From NCBI GenBank assembly GCA_023920165.1, contig CP089275.1, positions 4,836,001 to 4,900,000 of the forward strand: a stretch of 64,000 bases of DNA. Direction: 5' to 3'. This document shows, piece by piece, positions 15,791 through 60,517 of this stretch (the stretch's first letter is position 1; each line of letters starts with the position of its first letter). The translations under genes and the position numbers were made by a program. The stretch comes from Curvularia clavata. Its lineage: Eukaryota. The notes beneath the pieces are model-generated. The model saw nothing but the letters and a program-made list of their open reading frames with translations. It was not told the DNA's origin and did not search any database.

Positions 15791-16030
15791 GCATGTCTGC
15801 TCTTGAGAAGATGGGTACGGGAGGATATGGTTGAGTGATGCTAGTAATGTGGGCTAGAGAATAAGCTGTCAAGGTTTGGATGAGCTATAGGGTTCGCAAT
15901 CGTTGATTTGTATTCAGTTAATACGGAAACACATGTTGAGATTTTTTACAGTACTACGTCAAAAGTTTCGCTCGGTGACCATCGTCTTACCAAAATTATC
16001 GATTTCCACTATCTTTTAACTCAACAACTA

Positions 16031-16172
16031 ACATCCATCCCTGCGTAGCGCAAATCCAGGCGTGCCGTAAGCAACCAATCAAATCGTAAGAATTGGGGAA
16101 AAGTCTTTGATTCAAGACGGCTGATTGGTTGCTTGCGTCACGTAGGGATTTGCGTCACTATGGGATGGATGT
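16031..16172. mobile_element. 142-bp MITE of Tc1/mariner-pogo (Fot1-like) type
   Basis: 51-bp imperfect TIRs (16031-16081 / 16122-16172, 41/51 identical) starting ACATCCATCCC; TA on both sides (16029-30, 16173-74); two 17-bp subrepeats in each TIR; no ORF. Confidence 0.8.
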
Positions 16173-16919
16173 TACCTTAAAGAATCGTTTTCAATTTTAA
16201 TTTACTGAATCAGTCTACATATGGATAACTGAATTTCAATTTAAAGAAATTCTATTAAGTTTAAAAAAGAACGGCGTGGAGATAAATTACAAAAGTTGAA
16301 AAACAGCGAAGATTAACTAGTCAGGGTTTTACATGACTATGAATTTAAAAAGAACATTGAAAAAAAGATATCAACTTTTGAATATCTGTGGTTGAGAAAG
16401 TTGTTCATATTTTTGCTCAAAATTGAAATATGTTAACGTCCAAACACACCTCCACTCATGTAGCGGTCCTTGGATATTCTCATTCGGTAGTTGTAGTTTC
16501 ATAAGACTGCAAAGTAGGCCTGTGTTGGTGAGAAATCGCGCAAAGTGCAGAACCTTTGACACGTAACTGTAGATTGAAATAGGCTTGATACTTACTGTCC
16601 AATCAATTTTTATGTGATATTTAGCTGTGTCTTCTTTCGCATGCTTCCCTTGACTCAAATTACCATTACTTTCTGTGAATGTCGTATCTTGTTTGAAATC
16701 ATTTATGCTTTCTCGTTGTACTACAAATCCATGGTGTGGGCCCAGAAAATTTCTTCCTGTTCACATCACATACGTTTTTTCAACGCAACCATGCTAGCAG
16801 CTACTGATTATATCGCACGTTTTCAAGCTGAAATCCAGAACGATACAAGAAATTGGAACGAATAGCCTTCTAGTTACTTGGCGGTACTATCAGTAGATCG
16901 TGCACACAGTAAACCTTCA

Positions 16920-17293
16920 GCTATGCCGAGCCAATCCTAGCCCTTGGTGCGGCGGGGTGCTTATATTCATGCGTAATCGCCACTCTTATTAATATATCTC
17001 TAGTGAGCAGCTTCTGTGTTTCGCTATTATAAAACCGTCTACAACGTAACTTTCTCTAGACTAAGCTTATGGCTCTAGAGCCCTGTAGCTGTGTGAGCTC
17101 TAAAATCTAGTTAGCAAGTTAAAAAGCCGCGTACGAGTTAGATTCAGCTTTGGCTCTATAATGATAGTCTCTCGTGTATTACGATCACACCTCTTTAGTC
17201 TAATAGCATGGTCCCAAACTCAGTACAGTTGCGAGCAGAGTCGGTTTCTGGTTTTGAGCTTTGACCTGTTCTCACTACACGGTCTTGTTAACA
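16920..17293. repeat. Possible RIP-degraded repeat/transposon fragment
   Basis: TpA-rich, stop-rich sequence (CTCTAGA, CTATAA, TCTAGTTAG) behind a GC-rich end (CCGAGCCAATCCTAGCCCTTGGTGCGGCGGGGTGC). No partner end found in the window. Confidence 0.3.
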
Positions 17294-17582
17294 AAGGTGA
17301 TTCCTATGTCGTTTTAGCGGGCTAAAAGGGGCACGTGGAGCGTCTAACAATGTGTGTATGTCGAGATGCGATGGCTATAGCTTCCTACCTATGTATGACT
17401 ACTTGCGGTACATTGCATCTAGAAAGACTGATCCAGACAGGTACTTGTTAACCGCGGCTTTTGGGGCTCGATATCTCTCAGAATTTGATGAAAGTTACTA
17501 GAAAGCAGAAAATCTTTGGCAACTTATATATCGTGTCGAATCGTCTTCATGATAGAGCAATCGAAGGGACTAATGCAACTAT

Positions 17583-19356
17583 CTAGTTTATCTCGATATC
17601 CTCTAGTTTTTCTCGTCGTCCCCACATCATTTTGGTCAATCTATTGGAAAAGTTCGACCCTGTATCTTGGACCATGCTACCCAGCTTGATGTGAGGGTAC
17701 TTGTGTTGATAATGATTTTTTTCCCGATGCCACCATGTACGCCAAGCCAAAAGCACCACAATGGTCAGAGGCACGCTAACTATCCAATATATCCAAAAAT
17801 GTCTTGAGAGAACTTCAGTTTCTTCATTTGAGTTTGGTAATTTTGCCTTCGTTTCAGCCTGCCAATCGAACATTGACGCACTGAATAATGTCTTTATCGC
17901 ATACAACCTGGTTAGTTACATCTCTTATTTTTATTTTGACTAAGACGAATTATACGTACAGCTACGAATGTTGGAGGTAGAAAGAGAGTGGTAACAAAAG
18001 CAAGGGCTTTCATTGCAACACTATCAAGCCCTGTGGTGGCCGCAATTGTTGAATTGACGTTGCTGTCCATTTGAGCGACCATATTGTAAAGCTGAAACGG
18101 CTGGTCAAAACTTAAATTAATTGCTGAACGTATTGAACCTCTTACCACATTGAATTGTATATCTAGTCTGGCCTTTATCGCCTCCGTGTGTTCCAAAATC
18201 GAGGCAGCAAGAGTGGACAGGGTCTCAATAGTTTTCTCCAGCTTTGGTTCACTACTTCGCGTCGATTCGGTGAGCTCTTGGATATCTTTGGAGACATCTC
18301 GCAGGAATTGGCAATATCTTTTACTCCATTCTAAGTTCCCAGCGAACGTGGCAGCATCAGTAGCGATAGTGTTGATCTCAGTGATGGTGCTGAGTCGTTT
18401 CTCAGGCGCCATGTTTAGACTCAATGCTCCAAAATCCAATGGTGTTAAAGAGTTGCCGTTTCTTCCGGCTACCGTAACTCCTAGTTGTTTTTCCATTTTT
18501 GTCGTTCTACGAGAGAGATCGAACCCCTTGTACATGTCCGCATGGTAGATGTAGTCTTCAAGTAGAATTACCGGTAACAGCAATGGATGTCTCCAATCAG
18601 AAATTGCCGATTTGATGAGCTTGGCAATCCGGGGACCATGAAGTTCCAGATAGCTGGGACGCTCCATAATACTCATGTACCCTTTCCAATGCTTGTCACT
18701 GAACATGTTCCAGCCGAACATGAAGCCGAATGTGGTGTGTGTTTTGAAAGAGTGTGTCAAGCAGAGGCCGTAGTTTGCAACCTGGTACATTTGTGGAACC
18801 TTGACTGTAATAACTAACTTTCATATAAACTTTGCCGAGTTTTAAAGTCGTGACAATTTGGTCTTACCGAGCTGTCCGGACTTTTGATCATGAGGAGCCG
18901 AAGGACAAAAGTAGTAGGAATGACCACCTCCATTGAACTTGAATAATGGAAGCATTTCAATCGGAAGACCATACTTATCTTCGATAGCCAACAAGGAAGC
19001 CTTGCTCAAGCCAAAGTGAAGAGGCTGAAACATAGCTCGCTCACAAATTAGCAGTCTTATGCTGCCTTCTTCCTTCCCGAGACAAGAATCGGTTGGTCGG
19101 AAGAAGCGGCCCCTTTGATGTAGCCAGTCATCTACATCCAGGTCGCTTAGATCTCCCTCCCAATAAGATTCGTTTGTAGGCGTATCTACTGTAGTTTCTG
19201 AGGTTAGCGTAATGATCGAAACAAAGTAATTTTGAGGCTATGTTTGTTTAGCCTACCTGTATTTACAAAAGTCCGAGCTTCAATAAACCGAAGCTCACCT
19301 TCTCCAGGCTCCCACTTGCACTCATCTAGCACTTTCTGCCTTTGCAGATTGAACAT
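17583..19356 (-). CDS. CorA-like (Mg2+ transporter superfamily) membrane protein, 5 exons
   Basis: Introns ~19198-19256, 18814-18867, 18092-18145 and 17892-17959 join the ORF pieces in frame. C-terminus DSVAMKALAFVTTLFLPPTFVATLFSASMFDW...FWIYWIVSVPLTIVVL is the fungal CorA-like two-TM end; WRHPLLLP lies upstream. Confidence 0.75.
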
Positions 19357-22956: not shown

Positions 22957-24132
22957 TCAACCCAACCACTCCCTCAATCTCTCAAAATCCTCCGCCACCG
23001 CACGCTCCAGCCTCGCCAACCGCTGCTTCTGTTCTACAAATTCCCTATCTGCCTCCTCTATACTTGCCAAAAACTCCAGTATAAGATGCTCCGGCCCCTC
23101 AGTATGAATTGACGTGCAGAACACACTTCGCCGGACATGGCGGAGCAAAGATGAAAGATACGTATCGCTGGGTTCAAGGATTATGTGCAGGGTGACTTGA
23201 GGTGCTGGGGCTGGTGCGGACCCAGTGCAGTATGGGTTGCTGCAGGGTACAGTGGAATTGGAATTCCGGAGACTAGCCACGAAAAATGGATCTGAGAATA
23301 TAGAGTAAGTACGCTGTTGTCGGGCCTCGAGAGCGTCAATTCTAGCTTGGTATTCAGCTGCCACTTCTGCTCTAGCTTGAGCGACTTGCTGCTCAGTGTC
23401 CTGGTCCTTGGTGAGCAGAAGCTGCTCCTGGGCTGCAAGTTGCGAGAGGAGGTTGTTGTTCCTGGTAATGAGCCTCAAGTTTCTCACACGAAGACTGTGG
23501 GAATGTTTGACTTCGGTATCAAAGTCCGCTGCCAGTTTGTGGTAGGCGTTGTCCAGGTCGATCAAGTGAGTCATCAGCACATTGTTCTCCAGCTCCAGAG
23601 TAGAGAGATATTCTATCAGCTCTTCGATCTCAGTCTCCTCATCCTGAACCTCGACAGGTGCGGTACGCGCACCAGTGATATCAGATAGACCAAGTTCAGG
23701 CGGCGTAATCGTATCGGAGCCGATATGAGATTCTAGCTTCCTAGCCGCCTGCTTCTTCTGTTGATATTTCACAAAATTCTTTACAAGCAGGTGTTGCAAC
23801 TCTGCCTCTCCCGGCTCAACATCCATCTCTTCTCGCAAATCTGCGATTTCAGCTTCGAATTCACTAAGGTGTTCCCGCTCCTTCGTAAGCTGAAACCCCT
23901 CTTCTCTCTCTAAGAAATCAGCGTATTGCTGGGTTAGAACCGCCTCACTCCGCCTCAAACAGTCCAACTCCTCTTCTATCGGATCGATCTCCGTAGCCTG
24001 GGTCAAGCTGCCGCTGTCGTGGGGACAAAGTATCCAGTCGTCGTTTGTGTCCACCGACGAAACGGCAGGAGATGTGGGGCGCGAAATATCTTCGAGAGAC
24101 AACATGAAAATATCCGTTGTTTGAGAAAACAT
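22957..24132 (-). CDS. Hypothetical coiled-coil protein (391 aa)
   Basis: Intronless ORF rich in E/L/Q heptads; no recognised domain. Confidence 0.65.
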   Translation of the reverse strand: MFSQTTDIFMLSLEDISRPTSPAVSSVDTNDDWILCPHDSGSLTQATEIDPIEEELDCLRRSEAVLTQQYADFLEREEGFQLTKEREHLSEFEAEIADLREEMDVEPGEAELQHLLVKNFVKYQQKKQAARKLESHIGSDTITPPELGLSDITGARTAPVEVQDEETEIEELIEYLSTLELENNVLMTHLIDLDNAYHKLAADFDTEVKHSHSLRVRNLRLITRNNNLLSQLAAQEQLLLTKDQDTEQQVAQARAEVAAEYQARIDALEARQQRTYSIFSDPFFVASLRNSNSTVPCSNPYCTGSAPAPAPQVTLHIILEPSDTYLSSLLRHVRRSVFCTSIHTEGPEHLILEFLASIEEADREFVEQKQRLARLERAVAEDFERLREWLG

Positions 24133-24442
24133 AAACTAGTTTATACAACTGCAGTTTACAAAAGGTGGTGCAAGGGCTGGAATTTAAATATTTTAGGCTC
24201 CATGGTGAAGCAGCACTTAACTTTGTGAAGCTTAATACAATTTTAACTGTGTAATTTCACACAATGCTCACGTATTCGGAGTGTCTTACACAAAGTGCTT
24301 GTCTTAAACACCACTGGTTGACTGTTTGTACAAAGTTATGCATCACCTATGCACTAGACCAAATATGGGATCGAGAAAACTGATTTCGCGACATTTACAG
24401 CACGGAGGAGAAATTGACGAGCTTACATCAGCGAAATCGATA

Positions 24443-26284
24443 ACGTGCGCCACCAGTGAGCTGGCCACACCAGTGAGCTGGCCGCCCCACCAAACCTGAC
24501 CTGCCGCGACACACAATAGATCCACAACAACGTGATGAAATTAGATAGAATATGGAAGTAACATTCACTATCTAGTTTTGAAGGTAGTCCGAGTGTGTCC
24601 TTGAACGTGGCACTTCGTGCACGTTAGCGGCGCGCGTTGACGTCGCTGACTGCCCTCACTCTGCCCAACCTCCGCGACCACCCTTTCTACCTCTGCAGCA
24701 AGCTGCTGAGCCTGCTGCACCCGAAGAACTCCACCAGAAGCAATATATTAACGCCGCTAATCTTACTTCTATCTTAGCCGCTCACTACCTTAACGTAGTT
24801 TCTTATTTTCTTCAGCAAGTATTATTACTAATTGCATTACAATCTAACAGCCTTTAATAACTTAACAGAGAAGTTGGCTTATTAGACTCTAAGATTCCCG
24901 ATAAGGCCTATCTTAAAGACATTTTGCTTGCTGCTAAAGCTGAGCTACTATATAGGGCGTCTCTACTTACTAGGCGCTATTAGTAGTCCCGCTATCTATA
25001 ATTATCTATAGTAGAGATAGCGTCCAGATAATAGTTAGTGACGAAAGAACACAATCTAGACGAAAAGGAATAAGACCTGTCGCCCAGAAGCCTACCTAAA
25101 TATTCTACTACATAAATATTATTAGTCAGATCTGCGTATAGGCTATAAGGAAGTCTATCTTATCAATATAGTAGACGCCTTAACAGACAAGCTCATCAAC
25201 CTCACGTCTATACGCGCGCTTAAGAGGAGAGTAGCAGCCTACGTCTAGAGGCTAGAGAAGATGGGAGGTATAGGGTGGCATACAGAGAGTAATAATCTTG
25301 TTCTCGGCGCAGTATTAGTCGAACTCTAGCATAGCATAGCTACCATAGCCGTCTACGATAAGAAGCCGATAGTCTCCAGCTATACGAGCAGCTATATGTT
25401 AGTTGAAGTGCTTCACCCACTCTACACCGAGCTCATCTGTCGTCCAGCCGTTGTCTGAGACGCCGACAGTCCAGTCAAGTAGGAGATCGCGATACTAGAT
25501 ATTCTGATAGACTTTACCAGACAGGATCACCAAAAGTAGTAGAGACTAACCAGACGCGTTAACACACTCAATTACTATAACCCACTCGCGATTGCCTAGC
25601 TCTACAACAGCTAGCCGTCTAACTCTTTTAGAGCTTATAACTACCTTTAACGATACAGCGACGCCTATCGCGAATCTAGTCTCGTCAAAGTTATAGATAT
25701 CTTAATCAAGGACGCCATACGTCTGGCGTATCTCCTCTACTAGCTTAAACTACGCTATAATCACTCTAAGATCCTCACAGCAGGCGCGCTAGCTATTAAG
25801 TCTTCTACTCCACTTTATCTAAAGCTCAGGCTGGCTCTAGATAAAGCGCGATACCCAGTTCTTACCAACTGGCTATAGAGGTGGATCTTAGCTACGCGCG
25901 GCAAGCAGAACGTCTGCCATTCGTCGCACGTCGATAATATAAGGCGGAAAGCCTCATTTATCTAGCTTTAGGATCTACTATACAAGAGACTGCTCTTCAA
26001 TAGGCGATAGCTTTCGTTTGGCAGAAGCTGTCTCTAATCGCGGCTAGACACCACGGAGACGTGTCTGAAGAGTCAATTTTAGCACATCGTACGCTTTTGC
26101 GAGAGCGTAGATAGATTGATTTAGATTATTATAATAAGAAGCTACAGCAAGACTAGTTCTGTCTTTACGAGAAGTTGATTGAGCGCGTAGTTGTCGCGGC
26201 ATTGTGGTGGTTGTGGAGAGAGTTGGGTCAGGTTTGGTGGGGCGGCCAGCTCACTGGTGTGGCCAGCTCACTGGTGGCGCACGT
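24443..26284 (-). mobile_element. Fot1/pogo-like DNA transposon A (1842 bp), heavily RIP-mutated
   Basis: Perfect 59-bp TIRs (24443-24501 / 26226-26284) starting ACGT; TA at 24441-42 and 26285-86; internal transposase relic. Confidence 0.95.
24568..26202 (-). pseudogene. RIP-inactivated pogo transposase of element A (1635-nt frame)
   Basis: ATG at 26202 (MPRQLRAQSTSR..), YNFDET motif, W.VGVSDNGWTTDELGVEWVKHF, C-terminal CTKCHVQGHTR; many TAG/TAA stops of C>T / G>A type. Confidence 0.9.
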
Positions 26285-26286
26285 TA

Positions 26287-28128
26287 ACGTCAAAGATCAG
26301 TAAGCTGCGCGGATCAGTAAGCTGCGCACCCCACCCAACCTGACGCGACACTCTCTACAACCACCACAATGCCGCGACAACAACGTTCGATACAGACTTC
26401 ACGTGAAGGTAGACTTTGTCTTGCTGTAGTTTCATATCAAAATAACCAAAAACAATCTCTCTACGCACTTGCAGCAGCGTACGACGTGCCAGAATCAACG
26501 CTACGAACGCGTCTCCGCGGTACCCAGCCACGAGCAGAGACAGTCTCTGTCAACCGTAAGCTATCACCAATTGAAGAGCAGTCTCTTGTAAAATGGATCC
26601 TAGCCCTTGATTAGCGTGGTTTCCCACCCTATATTATTAACGTACGACGGATGGCAGACGCTCTACTTGCTGCGCGTGGTCAAGATCCACCTCCACAACC
26701 TGTTAGCAAGAAGTGGGTATCGCGCTTTATCCAAAGCCAGGCAGAGCTTCAGATAAAATAGACTAGAAGATTACATAGTCAGCGCGCTTTCTGCAAAGAT
26801 CCTATCGCAATTGCAGCCTGGTTTAAGCTAGTAGAAGAGACGCGCCAAACGTACAGCGTTCTTGACCAGGATATCTACAACTTTGACGAGACTGGATTCG
26901 CGATAGGCGTTACTACAACGTCAAAAGTAGTTACTAGCTCTAATAGAGTTGGTAGAGCAGTTGTCGTACAGCCAGGCAATCGCGAGTGGGTTACAGCTAT
27001 CGAGTGCGTCAACGCGTCTGGCTGGTCTCTCCCACCATTTATGATTCTATCTGGCAAAGTCCACCAGGCTGGCTGGTATGATGGGCTCCCACTTGACTGG
27101 ACTGTTGGTGTGTCAGGTAACGGCTGGACGACAGACGAGCTTGGTGTAGAGTGGGTAAAGCACTACAATCAGCATACAGCGGCTCGAACAGCTAGAGTCT
27201 ATCGGCTTCTTATCCTCGACGGCCATAGTAGCCACGCCACGCCAGAGTTCGACCAGTACTGCGCTGATAATAAGATTATTACTCTCTGTATGCCCCCACA
27301 TACGTCGCATCTGCTCCAGCCACTTGATGTGGGCTGTTTTTCCCCGCTTAAACGCGTGTACGGTCGTGAGATTGAGGAGCTCGCTCGACAAGGTGTCTAC
27401 CATATCGATAAGATCGACTTTCTTACAGTCTATATATAGATCCGACAGACAGTTTTCACGCTGCAGAATATCTAAGCAGGCTTCCAAGCAATAGGTCTAA
27501 TCCCTCTCTGTCCAGAGCGTGTTTTATCATCGCTAACAGTCGTCCGAACGCCATCTCCACTACGGATAGACGTAGGCAGTACTACTATAACGCAGGCAGA
27601 AACGCCGCATACAGTAGAGCAGCTTCGGCAGCAGGTGCTCTATCTCCAAGAGCGGCTGCGCCAGCAACGCCGGCAGTTAGATAGCCCAACAAGCGTCGCT
27701 ATACGCCAGCTTGCAAAAAGCACTCAGCTTGCAATGCAATCAGCAACAATACCTGCAGAGGAAAATAAGAAGCTACGTATAGCCAACCAGCGTCAAAAAC
27801 GAAAGCAGGATGGGCGGCGTCAATATATTGCTTCTGGTGGAGCTCTCCAGGTACAACGGGCTCAGCAGCTTACTGCAGAGGTAGAAAGGGTAGTTATGGG
27901 CACTGAGTAGAGTGAGGGCAATCAGCAACGTCAGCGCGCGCCACCAACGTGTTCGAAGTGCCATATTCAAGGACACACTCGCACTTCATGTAGAGATAGA
28001 TAATTAATTATATCTCTTCATCTTGTTAAATTTTATTGCGTTGTTGTAAATCAATTGCGCAAAGAGTCGCGTCAGGTTGGGTGGGGTGCGCAGCTTACTG
28101 ATCCGCGCAGCTTACTGATCTTTGACGT
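26287..28128 (+). mobile_element. Fot1/pogo-like DNA transposon B (1842 bp), lightly RIP-mutated
   Basis: Perfect 63-bp TIRs (26287-26349 / 28066-28128) starting ACGT; TA at 26285-86 and 28129-30. Confidence 0.95.
26369..28003 (+). pseudogene. pogo/Fot1 DD35D transposase of element B with 5 premature stops
   Basis: HTH (AAAYDVPESTLRTRL), YNFDETGF, LILDGHSSH-35 aa-QPLD, CCHC tail CSKCHIQGHTRTSC. In-frame stops at 26612, 26759, 27437, 27473 and 27908 are all explainable as CAG/CAA/TGG to TAG/TAA. Confidence 0.92.
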
Positions 28129-28377
28129 TAGGTAATTGGCGGCAACAACAGATATGGCATTCGACAACCAGTCAACGTTGAAGGGTTGAAACTAGATCGA
28201 ATACGCATGGCGATATCCATCCATCATAGCACTAGTGGAAACACAGAGGTATTCAAAGCCATTTCAAGTAGCAGTCTTTCAATATCATAATATTCACATG
28301 TCCCCAGCTCTGCATTGATGTAGACTGTATCTTGTAAAATGATCACGACAACTAGTCGTACCGCAAAGAAGAATGTT

Positions 28378-30227
28378 TTAAGCAGCTCGCTCAATGGTCG
28401 TCGTTCCCGCCTTGGTATAATCAACGGTGCCATCGGTAATGCCATGATTAACCGACTTCTCAACCGCCTTGGTAGCTTCATCGGCAAGGTTGTCTTCGAA
28501 CACTGTAGGAGGCACAAAGTCAGCAAATGATACCTAAGAAAAATTATTAGAGAAGATGGGTCCAACTTACAGAATGTCAATTCTTCAAGCGTGCGGTTGT
28601 ACGTCTCAGGGTACATGAAATAGACGAACATGAATTCGAATGAAATCCATCCGCAGTAAATGGCAAAGTACCTCCACTCGATGGCGGTAAGAGCGATGGG
28701 GTTGACGTAGATAGAGAAGAAACCAGCAAGCTTTCCAAAGATTTGTTCAGTGCCGATACCCATGGTTCTTTGGGCATAAGGGAACAGTTCTACAAGGTAG
28801 GTGTATGTAAGCGAGTTGTTTCCGATGTTGTAGCAAGGCGAATAGGCGAAGTAGAAGAACAGAGATGCGATCTGAGCCGCGTTGTTCTTCGTATCCGCTT
28901 TGTCGGCTACTTGCATGGCGTGGAGGGTAATAGTAATGGCCATGAAAACCATCACCATGGATCCAGCGGAAAGCATAAACATCCAGCGGCGGCGGAAACG
29001 AGTGACCACGAGGGCGATAATGACAGCATTCAGCAAACTCCAGCACTGGTTGGCCATGTTGATGCGCGTCTTGACGCTGTCGTTGGTGAAACCCATCAAG
29101 TTGAAGAGCAGTTTCTGGTAGTAAGAGAGCAGAGTGTTGCCACTCATCTGAGTGAACAAACCAAGGAAAGAGGCGATGACCACACGTCGGCGCATACCAG
29201 GAGTGCGAACCATGTCCATCCAGGATTGCTTGGAGTTCTCCATTTCGAGCTTGATAGTGGATCGGATTTGGGCCATTTCAGCGTGCACGAGGACAGAGTT
29301 GGCGTCTCCTTCGGCGTGGTATTTGACCAGAACAGCAAGTGCCTCCTCCTCACGATCACGGCTGATAAGCCAACGAGGACTTTCAGGGAGCAACCTAATC
29401 ACATCAGTCAGCAGGAGTTTGTTTTAGTTTGAACTACATTCATACCAAACGGTGCAAATCTGCAATAGGGATGGGCAAATCTGGAGGAGTGAAGGAATCC
29501 TCCAGCCCCAGTCTCCTGTGATGTCGGTTGTCTTGATGGAAATCGCAGCGGCGACAATCGAACCGATAAAGTACGAGGCGTTGAAAAGGGAAGTCATGAA
29601 AGGTCGTTCTTTCGGGTAGGCAAGCTCTCCAATCAGGGACGATCCGGAGACGATGGCAAAGAGGATTCCAAATCCAAGCAGCATGCGTGCAATGATGTAC
29701 ATAGCGACTAATGACTGGTAAGAAACGATTTTTTAGCGGTGGATTTTGGTTAAAACTCACTGTGCTGGGCAAATCCTTGCAGGATGGCACCAATGACCAT
29801 GATGACGGAACCCACGAAGACAGACATGCGCCTGCCGTAGGTTTGGCTTAGCCATGGGGCGACAGGGACTGCGAGAATGGAGCCGAGTTGATAACACGAA
29901 GACATGAAACCGATAATGCGCGGGTCGATTGAAGGTTTTTTGTCCTTGTCCAGGTAGCCATCTCCGAAATCTACAATTCTTAGTACCTATCAAAGGCGGG
30001 AAAAACACACAGAACGTACACTTGTTGAACGGAGTCGAGAATTGGAGCGTGCCGATGAGCTGAGAGTCAAAACCGGATGTGATCTCAACGCCCATGCAGC
30101 AGCAGAAGAGCCAAACATACATGAGTCGGAGGTTTTTTTTCTTCCACCATCGCACCTTGTCCTGCTCCACCATGCGAGTGATGATGGGCTCGGCAGATGT
30201 TGCCTCCGGCTGCTTTAGGAGACCCAT
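28378..30227 (-). CDS. MFS sugar porter, lactose permease/cellodextrin transporter (Lac12/CDT-like) family, 5 exons
   Basis: Introns 29971-30019, 29708-29760, 29395-29445 and 28503-28570. Motifs TSGFDSQ, ELAYPKER, WGWRIPSLLQ, PESPRWL, QMSGN, TYLVELFPY..R, PETYNRTLEEL. Confidence 0.9.
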
Positions 30228-56579: not shown

Positions 56580-58409
56580 CTATGGCGCCTCCTTAACCAC
56601 TGGCGCCTCTTCCTCTGACCAAGCACCCTTAATCGTCTGCTGTCCCACGGGCTTCTGCACAGGCGTCTGCTGCGGCATAGGCTGGAGCTCTGGAGGCGTA
56701 GGCCTGAGTCCATTGTTAAAAATCTCATCCGCAATCTCGATACCCAGTGGCACACCACCAATAGGGAAGAGGCCCTCACGGTCCTCACGCGTGCCCTTGG
56801 TCGTATACCTGATATCCTCTACATTCTGGAACACGGTTGCGCCGTTGTTGTCGACGGCATAGACGTCCTTGGTCGTAGTAGGAATAAGGATGTCGCGTGC
56901 GGCAGCGGCATCGAAGCGCCAGTGGACACCGAGGAAGATGCGCGAAATGGCATTTTCGAACATGAGTTCCCAGGCAGAGTCAAAGTGGCGCACGATGCGT
57001 GTGCGAACAATGCCAGGCTGGTCTTCGATAGGAGCAGTGGGGTCGTAGGGCTGGCGAAGGTCGCGGTTCAGGCCATTGAGCTCCTCAGAGATCACCATGT
57101 CAATAGCAATGTTGTCTGGTTCGTCGTCCTTCCATGTGCCTACACGCCCGTTGTAGTATCGGCGCACCATTTGGAAAACAGCACCGCCAAAGGTGGCGTG
57201 TCCAGAGGGGTATGCTGGGAAAGGAGGCTTGAATGGAATATCGTTTGTGTTAGTAGCTGGGGCACCGAGGGTGAGCCAGAAAGGATCTCCGTGGTCTGGA
57301 CGTCCGTCATCTCGCACACCAGAAAGTGGGCGCCAGAATTCATACTCCCATTTCTCTTTCCAGGAAAAGATGCCTGCGTCGGTGCAAGCAACGTCGACGA
57401 GGGCGAAGAGGCGGGCGAAATCCGCGTTGTTGACTTCGCTGTTTGCAAGGTCCTCTTCCTTCTTGTACGTAACTGCGATGCGACGTACAATCTGGTTGTA
57501 GAAGCGAGGTGGTGTACCAATGAGGTTTGACCCATCGTAGGCCCAGAATAGGCCTTGTGCGGTCTGCCATGGGCTACGTTTGGTGGAGTTGAGAGCCTGG
57601 GCACCACCCATAGCGATAGCGACGCGGATGGAGTCGTCGTATTCCGCAGTCTCGTCTGCATTAGAACGCAGGCCCGGTGGGTCGGCCAGGAAGTGCTCGC
57701 TCTGCGTGGCAAAGCGCTTCGTGGTCTTGCCGTAGAACGGGGCATGGTACTGACGGAAAGGCTTCTTGGGTCCATTGGGATTGTTGGGGTCTACTGGAAT
57801 CAGAACGACAGGGTGAGTAGGTTCATCATCAAATTTGTAGCGACCGGGCGTAGGGTGGTAGCCCTCCTGCGAAGCACCTCGAGGATCGTTGAGGAGAGCG
57901 AAGAAGACATCTGCTACAGCCTCACCAAACATGAAACTGGCTGACTCTCGGTCAACACCACCAGGCGCCTTCAGAACTGACCGGTCGATAACCAGGGCAA
58001 GCTGAGCATAAGCATTGTCGGAGATGTTGGCGCCGGGATTAGGATTAGGTTCCTCTACCGGCTTCATGTAGAGCGAAGTCAGCATTTTGAGGGCAGCTCC
58101 AGCGACTGCTTGGCGAGCATCATTTGCACCATTGGGGCTGGGCAGACGGTACGCAGCATTCTCAGCATCAGGTGAGAGAAAGGTGGTGAAGTTGGTCGGA
58201 GGGTAGATAGAAAAGTATGCGTCGTGAATTGCCAAGTGCAGCATACCCAGAGCCCTGGCAGAAAGAGGTGGGCCTGTCAGGGGACCTCCCACAGTGTGAG
58301 TTACGCGGTTGAGTTCCAAACCGACATGATTCCAGAAGAGTATGTAATTGGTGTTATACTCTTCCGGTTCGTCGATCTTGGGGAGTGGGATGGGTGTAAC
58401 AGACCCCAT
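56580..58409 (-). CDS. CPO: Vanadium-dependent chloroperoxidase (609 aa)
   Basis: [27 protein letters not shown] start and 609-aa length match the Curvularia inaequalis enzyme as I recall it. Vanadate-binding motifs [17 protein letters not shown] and [12 protein letters not shown] are intact. Confidence 0.97.
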
Positions 58410-58499
58410 CTTGAGAGTGATGATGTGTGTGATTGTAAGCAGTGAGTAGAATGAGCAGGTGAGTTGTGATTCTGACAAACAACGCGAAGGCTCACCGAC

Positions 58500-58505
58500 T
58501 TTATA
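58500..58505 (-). promoter_or_regulatory. Putative TATA box of vCPO
   Basis: TATAAA on the minus strand ~90 bp upstream of ATG 58409. Confidence 0.45.
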
Positions 58506-60517
58506 GCCCATTCTTCAATGCTACTAGTACACAACACGCAGTCTGTCAAAAGACCCTTAGCACCTCACACCCCAGAGGGGTCTATCCGCCGAAATCAGGT
58601 GAACCATGTTCAAGCCACAAAGTTACAAGAAACTACTATTCTCATGCAAGGGCGCAAGGCAGACGTACAGCCACACCCCCGTTGCGGCGGTGTGGCAGAC
58701 CATTGCCGTCAAGTGAACATAATCCTAGGCGACAACCAAGACGGATCTAGGAAGATCAATTGGGCTGCTTACGCTTGGCGTGAACTACATGTGACGAAAA
58801 ATTTGCTGACCAAATACGGCGTGGGGAGCTGGTGTTTGACTGGGATAAATGTTGGATGGTCAGATCTGACGTATGTACATCTCAGCTGACAGGGGGCCAC
58901 CTTACATCTCTGGAGGCTTCGTAGCCAATGCGGGTAGTACGAATATTCGCATCATGGTACACTCGTATCGTAAGGCGTATAATGTAGGGTGTAAGATGTC
59001 ACTTTGGTGCCTGCTGAGGTTTCATTGGGTCATCTCAGGGTCTAGAGAAGGCGGTATGGTTGGGATTCTCAGAACACAGTGGTTTGATCGTACGCTTCCA
59101 TTATTGCTGACACGGGGCAAATGAAAGACGTAAATAGTGTTCCTTGCGTCTTTTTGTTGTACGGATACCGAGGGCTTACAAGAAACACAACCAATCGTAT
59201 CTCGTGTGCTTGGTGTGAAGATGTATTTGAAGTCTATAGAATCACAAGGCTGAAGAAGCAAATCCTTGGCGATCTTGCACCTGCATATGCAATGCAAAGG
59301 TGGCCCGAAGGTTCCCGTCGCGAGGACGCAAGTAGAAGGTTGCTTGATTTCCAGACGCATTGTGGCGTTTAGAACGGTCCTAGCGCTCCTCAGTTGTGGC
59401 TCAGTGCACTCCAGCCCACCCCACGCACTTGGCTTTACGCAGGCTTTATGCATAATACCATTCGCATAAGACTATTTCCACAAGACCATTCACACACGAG
59501 GATAAACGGCTTGCCGAACACTGGTTTCACAGTTTGAAAGCACTTCGTCTCAAGGGCTGATTCAGACAGACAGCGATTTTGATTGCACACAATACCTAGT
59601 TCGGTGCCTAAAGGTATGAAATGCTCTTCACAAGTACCTCGATATCGTACAAGAGCGCTGCTAGACGCTTCACCGATGGATTGAAATTGTGCTGTACCTC
59701 AAGACGTTGGCGTGTAATTCAACGACGTTATGACGAGGATGTATGCGATGTTAACTACTTCACTTACTCACACATGGCGACTTAGCGGGTCCATGAGGAG
59801 CGAAAACATACAACTAGTATCGCACAGCAGATTGGGAAGGTGGCTACGACCTAGGAGCTCTCTTATCTATGAGCGCCATACAAAATAGGCTGGCTAAGTA
59901 CCACGTCAATGCCTGTAGGGATTGTGAGCCGACTTCGGCTACGGACCATAGCAATGAAGAGCGTCCCTAAGCATTCTTCTCACTCGAACCTTCTTCTGCT
60001 ATACATACACGCAGCAAAGACTGCTCGTAGCATTTTTAGCGCTTCCATGGCGACGCGATCTTGCGCAAGTGCAGGCGGCACCTCAGTCGACCAGGCCAAG
60101 GGTGCGCCGAACCGATCCCACAAAGTAGTACCCCGCTTTGTCGGAGCCGACAGGCTCTTCCTCGCCGCGGATGTTGATTGCTGACCTTGGAGCAGACAAC
60201 CTAAGCGACGGTCCGGCTTGCTATGTAGTTAGCTTCGTGTGCGAGTTCTCACAGTTCTGTTACCAAAATTGAGCAGAATCGAAGGTATAACAATAGTGTT
60301 GACAAGCTATATCGTGATATAAGATCCAACTCCATCTATAATTAGATACAGGTACCCTTGTCAGTGACTATGCCCCTCTTTCACGTACATGGGGAAGGAT
60401 CGGCGTCGGCAGACATTTCCTACCTTTCACCCTCACACCCCGTAACTTTGCCCTTGAAAGCGCGTACAGAGAACGACAACATTGGTTTTTGACCCACACT
60501 ATACAAATCAGATCGAG

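What the first reader, a model, noticed from the sequence alone, without database searches (positions are those of the whole stretch)
24441..28130. Two different pogo transposons of identical length joined head-to-head through one shared TA
Seen: TA-[A, 1842 bp, minus]-TA-[B, 1842 bp, plus]-TA. The junction is the palindrome ACGTTAACGT (26281-26290). Both ATGs lie 82 bp in from the element end and both transposase frames are 1635 nt. The TIRs differ and the bodies are clearly diverged (by eye roughly 70% identical), so this is not a local duplication. Inference: one element inserted exactly into the TSD of a sister family, possibly because its transposase is drawn to related TIRs. The result is a 3.7-kb imperfect inverted repeat with divergent transposase genes 166 bp apart. 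Predicted empty site: GCGAAATCGA-TA-GGTAATTGGC.
Basis: partly seen in the sequence, partly recalled or inferred. Interest (0 to 1): 0.75.

Follow-up and report, generated by a model that had tools for sequence, protein, structure and literature searches.

The report
Two dead fungal transposons sharing one TA
Two related but distinct cut-and-paste transposons sit back to back in a fungal chromosome, joined by a single shared TA; both are mutated beyond function, so this is an unusual but inert double insertion.

Summary
The geometry is exactly as reported: TA, element A (24443-26284, minus, 1842 bp), TA, element B (26287-28128, plus, 1842 bp), TA.

- **Family:** both are pogo/Fot1-type elements with DDE_1 and Tc5/CENP-B HTH domains, 59- and 63-bp perfect TIRs and TA duplications.
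neither gene is open. A has 34 premature stops and B has 5, with the C>T/G>A, CpA-biased signature of fungal repeat-induced point mutation (RIP).
- **Different lineages:** A is a RIP-mutated copy of an element that encodes an intact Curvularia clavata protein; 99 of 101 differing codons need only C>T/G>A. B falls in another clade.
- **Equal length:** a net of compensating indels.
- **Host:** a Curvularia-like Pleosporales fungus.

Best reading: two successive integrations at one TA, a heterotypic "double insertion", now inert. Under uniform TA use I expect 0.0005-0.06 such pairs per genome, so biased targeting is plausible. One locus cannot separate end-guided targeting from hot-spot reuse or luck, and no fungal genome collection was available for a census.

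The parts
24441..24442 (.). Left TA, the outer copy of the target-site duplication
   Evidence: sequence
24443..26284 (-). Element A: a 1842-bp pogo/Fot1-type transposon, heavily RIP-mutated
24443..24501 (+). Distal TIR of A, 59 bp and perfect, with two CAGTGAGCTGGCC 13-mers at 24454-24466 and 24471-24483
24568..26202 (-). A transposase pseudogene: a nominal 545-codon frame with 34 premature stops. Candidate catalytic motifs are kept at D173, D284 and D320.
26226..26284 (-). Junction-side TIR of A, with 13-mers at 26244-26256 and 26261-26273
26285..26286 (.). The shared TA, centre of the palindrome ACGTTAACGT (26281-26290)
26287..28128 (+). Element B: a 1842-bp pogo/Fot1-type transposon of a sister lineage, lightly RIP-mutated
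26287..26349 (+). Junction-side TIR of B, 63 bp and perfect, with two CAGTAAGCTGCGC 13-mers at 26298-26310 and 26315-26327
26369..28003 (+). B transposase pseudogene: a nominal 545-codon frame with 5 premature stops at codons 82, 131, 357, 369 and 514
28066..28128 (-). Distal TIR of B, with 13-mers at 28088-28100 and 28105-28117
28129..28130 (.). Right TA, the outer copy of the target-site duplication
22957..24132 (-). Neighbouring 391-aa ORF with no Pfam family. Its ATG lies 308 bp from the left TA, so the pair sits in its upstream region.
28224..29702 (-). Neighbouring sugar-transporter (MFS) gene pieces. The stop of the reading frame lies 93 bp from the right TA.

Best explanation
This is a heterotypic double insertion. 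Two sister lineages of pogo/Fot1-type (Tc1/mariner superfamily) cut-and-paste transposons integrated one after the other into the same intergenic TA of a Curvularia-like fungal chromosome.

The first integration duplicated the TA. The second used one of the two TA copies and duplicated it again, giving TA-A-TA-B-TA with the two 5' ends abutting. Both copies were then, or A possibly earlier, hit by repeat-induced point mutation (RIP), which filled the transposase genes with stop codons. Today the locus is an inert relic with no function of its own.

**Shown:** the structure, the family, the distinct ancestry of A and B, and the RIP damage.

**Inferred:** the two-step origin. I also infer that the second hit was not uniform-random. 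My split for its cause is about 35% guidance by the resident element's end, 30% reuse of a locally favoured site, 25% luck, and 10% other.

For end guidance, transposase bound to the subterminal 13-mers, which start 11 bp from the flanking TA, would tether or mimic a target complex. The order of arrival is not resolved.
For: **Structure and family**
- Exact TA/1842/TA/1842/TA layout with complete, perfect TIRs on both elements.
- Pfam DDE_1 in both (E 3e-31 and 6e-26) and HTH_Tnp_Tc5 in both. B scores above the curated cut-off; A scores below it.
- The 13-mer CAGTRAGCTGSSC occurs 8 times in 64 kb, all inside the four TIRs. The expectation is 0.78, and 0 of 100 shuffles reached 8.

**Separate ancestry**
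- In a tree of 64 rows, A pairs with P0015 (Curvularia clavata, intact, 544 aa) at 100% SH-aLRT support. B joins 15 other rows at 93.
- Intact A-type versus B protein identity is 74%.

**RIP**
- A versus P0015: 99 of 101 differing codons are reachable by C>T/G>A alone. In the control, B versus P0015, the figure is 44 of 149.
- Of 114 polarised changes on A, 85 are C>T or G>A, and 47 of the 66 C>T are at CpA. On B, 17 of 29 are C>T or G>A.
- TpA/ApT is 1.55 in A and 1.21 in B, against 0.61-0.71 in the flanks.

**Rarity of the placement**
- With 3001 TA per 64 kb, uniform TA use predicts 0.0005-0.06 exact TA-sharing pairs per 30-36 Mb genome holding 30-300 elements.

**Precedents (passages read)**
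- TE dimers formed by double insertion, with the duplication kept in the junction: PMC5932611.
- IS30 integrates next to its own inverted repeats: PMC9333248.
- A Tc1/mariner-family transposase tethered by a DNA-binding domain integrates into TAs 6-17 bp from the binding site: PMC2831304.
Against: - This is one locus only. The window holds no other copy of A or B, and no fungal genome collection could be searched, so recurrence is unknown.
- The finding was picked because it looked odd, which inflates its apparent improbability.
- The chance figures assume a genome size, and element numbers borrowed from Cochliobolus heterostrophus (29 complete plus 76 partial copies, PMC4112212), not from this genome.
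- Nothing here shows that either transposase binds the other family's TIR. The 13-mers differ at 3 of 13 positions, and the terminal 11 bp share little beyond ACGT.
- The assembly junction could not be checked against reads.
Confidence: 0.8

Rival explanations
1. End-guided targeting. Transposase bound to the resident sister element's TIR steers the incoming element to the flanking TA, as IS30 does with its own inverted repeats.
For: - The placement is improbable under uniform TA use.
- The candidate binding 13-mers begin 11 bp from the TA. That is inside the 6-17 bp range at which a tethered Tc1/mariner-family transposase integrates (PMC2831304, passages read).
- IS30 offers a precedent for integration next to its own inverted repeats (PMC9333248, passages read).
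- A's TIRs are still perfect despite heavy RIP in its body, so they could still be bound.
Against: - There is no second example.
- The 13-mers differ at 3 of 13 positions and the TIRs at 18 of 59, so cross-binding is unproven.
- My three searches turned up no report of this behaviour for a eukaryotic Tc1/mariner or pogo element.
Confidence: 0.3
2. Hot-spot reuse. The TA lies in a locally favoured spot, such as an open promoter region or a favourable DNA shape, and was hit twice independently of any TIR.
For: - The site is intergenic, 308 bp upstream of one ORF and 93 bp past another.
- P-element dimers form preferentially at sites that best match the preferred target (PMC5932611).
- MITE multimers are common in rice: more than 10% of 6,600 elements, as reported in the review PMC5172404.
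Against: - After the first insertion each TA copy keeps only half of its original context.
- No target consensus is known for this family, and none could be derived from one locus.
Confidence: 0.25
3. Pure coincidence. The second element landed on this TA by chance.
For: The expectation is small but not zero: up to 0.06 per genome with 300 elements. The locus was also selected after the fact for looking odd.
Against: The expectation is 0.0005-0.008 per genome with 30-105 elements.
Confidence: 0.2
4. A composite unit. A+B arrived here together, mobilised through its two outer TIRs.
For: - Outer TAs flank the 3686-bp unit.
- 'Complete' Tc1-Mariner copies of up to 3.9 kb are reported in Cochliobolus heterostrophus (PMC4112212, section read).
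- Database proteins P0003 and P0013, 81% identical to each other, both list a longest contig of 4253 bp. Whether they share that contig is unverified.
Against: - The outer ends belong to different families (41 of 59 TIR positions identical), so one transposase would have to synapse unlike ends.
- A TA flank is uninformative because every insertion makes one.
- There is no second copy of the unit in the window.
Confidence: 0.07
5. A local inverted duplication of one element that later diverged through RIP, or an assembly artefact.
For: The two elements have equal lengths and align collinearly.
Against: - The 190 transversions are not RIP products.
- The TIR 13-mers differ consistently across all four copies in each element.
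- A and B fall in different clades, each alongside intact relatives from other fungi.
- The equal length comes from compensating indels.
- An artefact would not yield clean TA-bounded complete ends, but reads were not available to check this.
Confidence: 0.03

Closest known systems
pogo/Fot1-type fungal DNA transposons, such as Molly (1862 bp) and Pixie (1845 bp) of Stagonospora nodorum and the Tc1-Mariner elements of Cochliobolus heterostrophus
   Same: - About 1.85 kb long, with a single transposase of roughly 540 aa carrying DDE_1 and Tc5/CENP-B HTH domains, long TIRs and a TA duplication.
- Found in Pleosporales and affected by RIP.
- Sources, passages read: PMC3017866 and PMC4112212.
   Different: I could not compare DNA with Molly, Pixie or Fot1 because no sequences were available here. 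Assignment to any named family is therefore open. The nearest proteins are unnamed or 'hypothetical'.
TE dimers formed by double insertion (McGurk & Barbash 2018, PMC5932611)
   Same: Two complete elements are separated by exactly one copy of the target-site duplication. That paper also mentions head-to-head P-element pairs (passages read).
   Different: Those cases are mostly two copies of the same family in Drosophila, with 8-bp duplications. Here two different sister families share a 2-bp TA in a fungus, and both were later killed by RIP.
IS30 inverted-repeat targeting (PMC9333248)
   Same: Integration occurs right next to a resident element's terminal repeat, giving abutted ends separated by 2 bp (passages read; the 2-bp spacing of the IR-IR junction is partly from my recall).
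   Different: IS30 is a bacterial copy-out-paste-in element that targets its own ends and produces a reactive junction. Here the elements are eukaryotic cut-and-paste elements of unlike families, and targeting is not shown.
Nested and adjacent MITE multimers in plants (Jiang & Wessler 2001, seen only through the review PMC5172404)
   Same: TA- or TAA-targeting DNA elements lie in or beside one another more often than expected.
   Different: Those are short non-autonomous elements present in thousands of copies. The original paper is not held in the library, so I do not know whether exact sharing of the duplication was described.
Tan1/Vader of Aspergillus niger
   Same: From recall only: a Fot1-like element and a related short element lie end to end (IR-ORF-IR-IR-Vader-IR).
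   Different: Only the names were seen, in a review. The structure is recalled, not checked, and the paper I tried is not held.

Membership tests
pogo/Fot1-type transposon (Tc1/mariner superfamily) | DDE_1 (PF03184) transposase core | tested here: met
   B scores 108.7 bits and A 91.6 bits, against a cut-off of 22
pogo/Fot1-type transposon (Tc1/mariner superfamily) | N-terminal CENP-B/Tc5-type helix-turn-helix DNA-binding domain | tested here: met
   HTH_Tnp_Tc5: B scores 34 bits against a cut-off of 22.2. A scores 18.7 bits, below the cut-off, because it is damaged by RIP. A's intact relative P0015 carries PF03221 in the precomputed list.
pogo/Fot1-type transposon (Tc1/mariner superfamily) | TA target-site duplication and terminal inverted repeats | tested here: met
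   TA at all three boundaries; TIRs perfect for 59 and 63 bp
pogo/Fot1-type transposon (Tc1/mariner superfamily) | Acidic catalytic triad with about 35 residues between the second and third residue | tested here: inconclusive
   The motifs NFDET (D173), DGH (D284) and PLDVG (D320) are present in A, B and P0015. That these are the catalytic residues is recalled, not tested. No solved relative was found by sequence.
pogo/Fot1-type transposon (Tc1/mariner superfamily) | Open transposase gene (an autonomous element) | tested here: not met
   34 premature stops in A and 5 in B. These are dead copies of the family, not active members.
Repeat-induced point mutation (RIP) product | Excess of C>T/G>A changes, biased to CpA/TpG | tested here: met
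   - A: 85 of 114 polarised changes are C>T or G>A, and 47 of the 66 C>T are at CpA.
- 99 of 101 codon differences from P0015 need only such changes, against 44 of 149 in the control.
- 27 of 49 Gln codons became stops.
Repeat-induced point mutation (RIP) product | Dinucleotide indices shifted in the repeat but not in the flanks | tested here: met
   TpA/ApT is 1.55 in A and 1.21 in B, against a median of 0.72 in 200 outside windows. (CpA+TpG)/(ApC+GpT) is 0.85 in A, 1.06 in B (borderline), and 1.23 outside.
Repeat-induced point mutation (RIP) product | Other copies in the same genome to pair with | not testable with these tools
   None in the window, and no fungal genome collection was available
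TE double insertion at one target site | Exactly one duplication-length spacer between two complete element ends | tested here: met
   A 2-bp TA lies between two full TIRs
TE double insertion at one target site | The two elements are independent arrivals | tested here: met
   Different clades and 190 transversions
End-targeting transposition (IS30-like) | Recurrent end-to-end junctions at independent loci | not testable with these tools
   Needs the whole genome and its relatives.
End-targeting transposition (IS30-like) | Transposase binds the resident element's terminal repeat | not tested
   Only sequence likeness is available: 10 of 13 positions in the 13-mers and 41 of 59 in the TIRs
Composite transposon | The same two-element unit present at other sites | not testable with these tools
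   No second copy in the window. The look-up for the P0003/P0013 lead was switched off.

The most novel reading that the evidence does not exclude
Pogo/Fot1 transposases of fungi may use the ends of resident sister elements as landing pads. This would be a eukaryotic counterpart of IS30's inverted-repeat targeting. Transposase sitting on the subterminal 13-mers, 11 bp from the flanking TA, would capture an incoming element. The result would be head-to-head heterodimers that could later move as composites. RIP would leave the ends of such elements intact and still bindable.
Probability: 0.2. Interest if true: 0.6.

Novelty: new member of a known kind. Interest (0 to 1): 0.3.

Why it matters
As it stands, this is a tidy example of two known things: pogo/Fot1 transposons degraded by RIP, and double insertion at one target site.

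It would matter more if a genome-wide census showed that such TA-sharing pairs recur. That would point to end-guided target choice in a eukaryotic Tc1/mariner-type element. Such a mechanism bears on how transposon clusters and composite elements start, and on engineering site-directed integration.

The locus also shows RIP sparing about 240-300 bp at each end of an element, including the TIRs. A RIP-killed copy could therefore still be recognised by transposase.

Tried and rejected
- **Other copies in the window.** I searched with blastn, tblastn and repeat finding and found none.
- **Host identification from the neighbouring ORF.** A homologue search gave 1 hit with no name. The host was placed instead through the vanadium chloroperoxidase gene.
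- **Did A and B RIP each other?** Not favoured.
  - A's C>T excess continues through positions 1201-1500, where A and B differ by 23% transversions.
  - A is far more mutated than B (34 versus 5 stops).
  - The junction-side ends of both elements are untouched.
- **Local duplication.** Rejected.
- **Identical length as a signal.** Rejected. It results from compensating 3-residue indels, and a gapped DNA alignment needs 27 gaps.
- **Solved structural relatives of the transposase.** None found by sequence.
- **Papers not held.** PMC3067431 on Vader and PMC139471, Jiang & Wessler.
- **Order of insertion.** It cannot be resolved from RIP load, because RIP depends on each family's other copies.
Full report
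**What is there.**
The sequence reads TA (24441-2), a 1842-bp element A on the minus strand (24443-26284), TA (26285-6), a 1842-bp element B on the plus strand (26287-28128), and TA (28129-30).
- A has perfect 59-bp terminal inverted repeats (TIRs) and B has perfect 63-bp TIRs.
- Each TIR holds two copies of a 13-mer spaced 17 bp apart: CAGTGAGCTGGCC in A and CAGTAAGCTGCGC in B.
- The degenerate motif occurs 8 times in the 64-kb window, all inside these four TIRs. The expectation is 0.78, and 0 of 100 shuffles reached 8.
- The first 13-mer starts 11 bp from the flanking TA.
- The junction 26281-26290 is ACGTTAACGT.
- Both ATGs start after 82 bp, so they are 166 bp apart.
- Ungapped A/B identity is 1329 of 1842 (72.1%). 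The 513 differences comprise 323 transitions and 190 transversions.

Neither transposase gene is open.
- In the frame that starts at the ATG, A has 34 stops before the shared terminal stop at codon 545, and B has 5.
- Read through with X at the stops, both match Pfam DDE_1 (E 3e-31 for B, 6e-26 for A) and the Tc5/CENP-B helix-turn-helix. B scores above the curated cut-off and A below it.
- These are the pogo/Fot1 kind of Tc1/mariner elements.
- The motifs NFDET, DGH and PLDVG (D173, D284, D320) are present in both. That they form the catalytic triad is my recollection of the family, not a test.

**The damage is RIP.**
I used 62 full-length database relatives to decide which element changed at each codon. 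These were the 62 of the 120 listed hits that are 530-560 aa long; the other 58 were left out.
- 516 of 544 codons stayed in register. 107 codons differed only synonymously and 83 could not be polarised.
- On A, 85 of 114 assignable nucleotide changes are C>T or G>A, and 47 of the 66 C>T are at CpA. On B, 17 of 29 are C>T or G>A.
- TpA/ApT is 1.55 in A and 1.21 in B, against 0.61-0.71 in the flanks and a median of 0.72 in 200 other 300-bp windows.
- The signal stops at the element borders.

**A and B are different lineages.**
- In a quick maximum-likelihood tree of 64 rows, A pairs with P0015 at 100% SH-aLRT support. P0015 is an intact 544-aa protein named as Curvularia clavata. B joins a separate group of 15 rows at 93.
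- A and P0015 are collinear without gaps and identical at 443 of 544 positions. Of the 101 differing codons, 99 can be derived from a codon for the P0015 residue by C>T/G>A alone. The same test on B versus P0015 explains only 44 of 149.
- A is therefore a RIP-mutated copy of essentially the P0015 element.
- B's closest database protein is 78-79% identical.
- Intact A-type versus B is 74% identical, with two compensating 3-residue gap regions. The equal 1842-bp length is therefore a net coincidence, not a sign of recent common origin. A gapped DNA alignment gives 76% identity with 27 gaps.
- The 190 transversions exclude a local duplication followed by RIP.

**Host and setting.**
- Named relatives of the transposase above 60% identity are all Pleosporales: Curvularia, Bipolaris, Exserohilum, Alternaria, Pyrenophora, Stemphylium and Didymella.
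- The window's vanadium chloroperoxidase gene (56580-58511, minus) matches the solved chloroperoxidase over all 609 residues, with only scattered differences. That the solved enzyme is from Curvularia inaequalis is recalled; the table gives only the molecule name.
- The window otherwise carries core genes: dynein heavy chain, a DPP-IV-type peptidase, an AAA ATPase and a HET-domain protein.
- The pair lies between a sugar-transporter gene, whose frame stops 93 bp from the right TA, and a 391-aa ORF of no known family, whose ATG lies 308 bp from the left TA.
- No other copy of A or B is in the window.

**How it arose.**
A cut-and-paste element that integrates at TA duplicates that TA. A second integration into either copy gives exactly TA-A-TA-B-TA.
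- This is the 'double insertion' route described for TE dimers in Drosophila, where the duplication is preserved in the junction and head-to-head P-element pairs are noted (PMC5932611, passages read).
- The order of arrival cannot be read from RIP load, because RIP depends on each family's other copies.
- A and B probably did not RIP each other. A is far more mutated. Its C>T excess runs through positions 1201-1500, where A and B differ by 23% transversions. The junction-side ends of both are untouched.

**Chance or targeting?**
- The window has 3001 TA dinucleotides, or 46.9 per kb. For an assumed 30-36 Mb genome, the expected number of exact TA-sharing pairs under uniform TA use is 0.0005-0.0006 with 30 elements, 0.0065-0.0078 with 105, and 0.053-0.064 with 300.
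- The middle figure borrows the 29 complete plus 76 partial Tc1-Mariner copies reported for Cochliobolus heterostrophus (PMC4112212).
- The placement is therefore unlikely to be uniform-random. However, the locus was chosen because it looked odd, and insertion is never uniform.
- Two biased routes are plausible.
  - One is reuse of a favoured site, as shown for P elements and suggested by MITE multimers in plants (review PMC5172404).
  - The other is guidance by the resident end. IS30 integrates next to its own inverted repeats (PMC9333248). A Tc1/mariner-family transposase given an extra DNA-binding domain integrates into TAs 6-17 bp from the bound site (PMC2831304). Here the 13-mers start 11 bp from the TA.
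- Against cross-recognition, the 13-mers differ at 3 of 13 positions and the TIRs at 18 of 59.
- I could not test recurrence.
- My three literature searches on this point found no report of a TA-sharing pair of different pogo/Fot1 families. These searches cover open-access papers only.

**Verdict.**
The locus is a heterotypic double insertion of two RIP-killed pogo/Fot1-type transposons in a Curvularia-like genome. It is a new instance of known kinds of event, and it is inert. The targeting idea remains open and is cheaply testable with the whole genome.

Noticed in passing
window 24443-26284 (element A): RIP in A is confined to the middle of the element. 27 of 37 Gln codons between codons 50 and 490 became stops, against 0 of 12 outside that range (Fisher p = 7e-6; I chose the boundaries after seeing the data). 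About 240 bp at the 5' end and 300 bp at the 3' end are untouched, although the two 59-bp TIRs hold 26 CpA/TpG sites between them. A RIP-killed copy therefore keeps intact ends.
   Followed up: partly
window 16031-16172: A 142-bp MITE-like unit. It has 53-nt inverted arms that are 81% complementary and is flanked by TA on both sides (16029-30 and 16173-4). Its ends are unlike those of A or B.
   Followed up: partly
codon 369 of both pseudogenes (A, minus strand; B near 27473): A and B both carry a stop at codon 369, TAG in A and TAA in B. The intact relative P0015 has Gln there, so these are independent RIP hits on the same codon.
   Followed up: no
database proteins P0003 and P0013: These two different B-clade transposases are 81% identical to each other. 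Both list a longest contig of 4253 bp, which is just enough for two abutting 1.84-kb elements. This may be a second adjacent pair. The look-up that could confirm a shared contig was switched off.
   Followed up: partly
database proteins P0017, P0071 and P0116: Gene models in Stemphylium lycopersici and Bipolaris maydis named 'plasma membrane calcium-transporting ATPase 2' are fusions of this transposase with another domain: PF00689 in P0017 and P0071, PF00651 in P0116. They are likely mis-annotations caused by an inserted element.
   Followed up: no
window 56580-58511, minus strand: A vanadium chloroperoxidase gene that is nearly identical over 609 residues to the solved enzyme (PDB 1VNC, 1IDQ, 3BB0). 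This places the window in or near Curvularia.
   Followed up: yes
window 16001-18000: A low-GC stretch (0.38-0.42) with TpA/ApT of 1.41-1.50 in the 300-bp windows starting at 16801 and 17101. It may be an older RIP-degraded relic. An ORF at 17912-18820 has no Pfam match.
   Followed up: no
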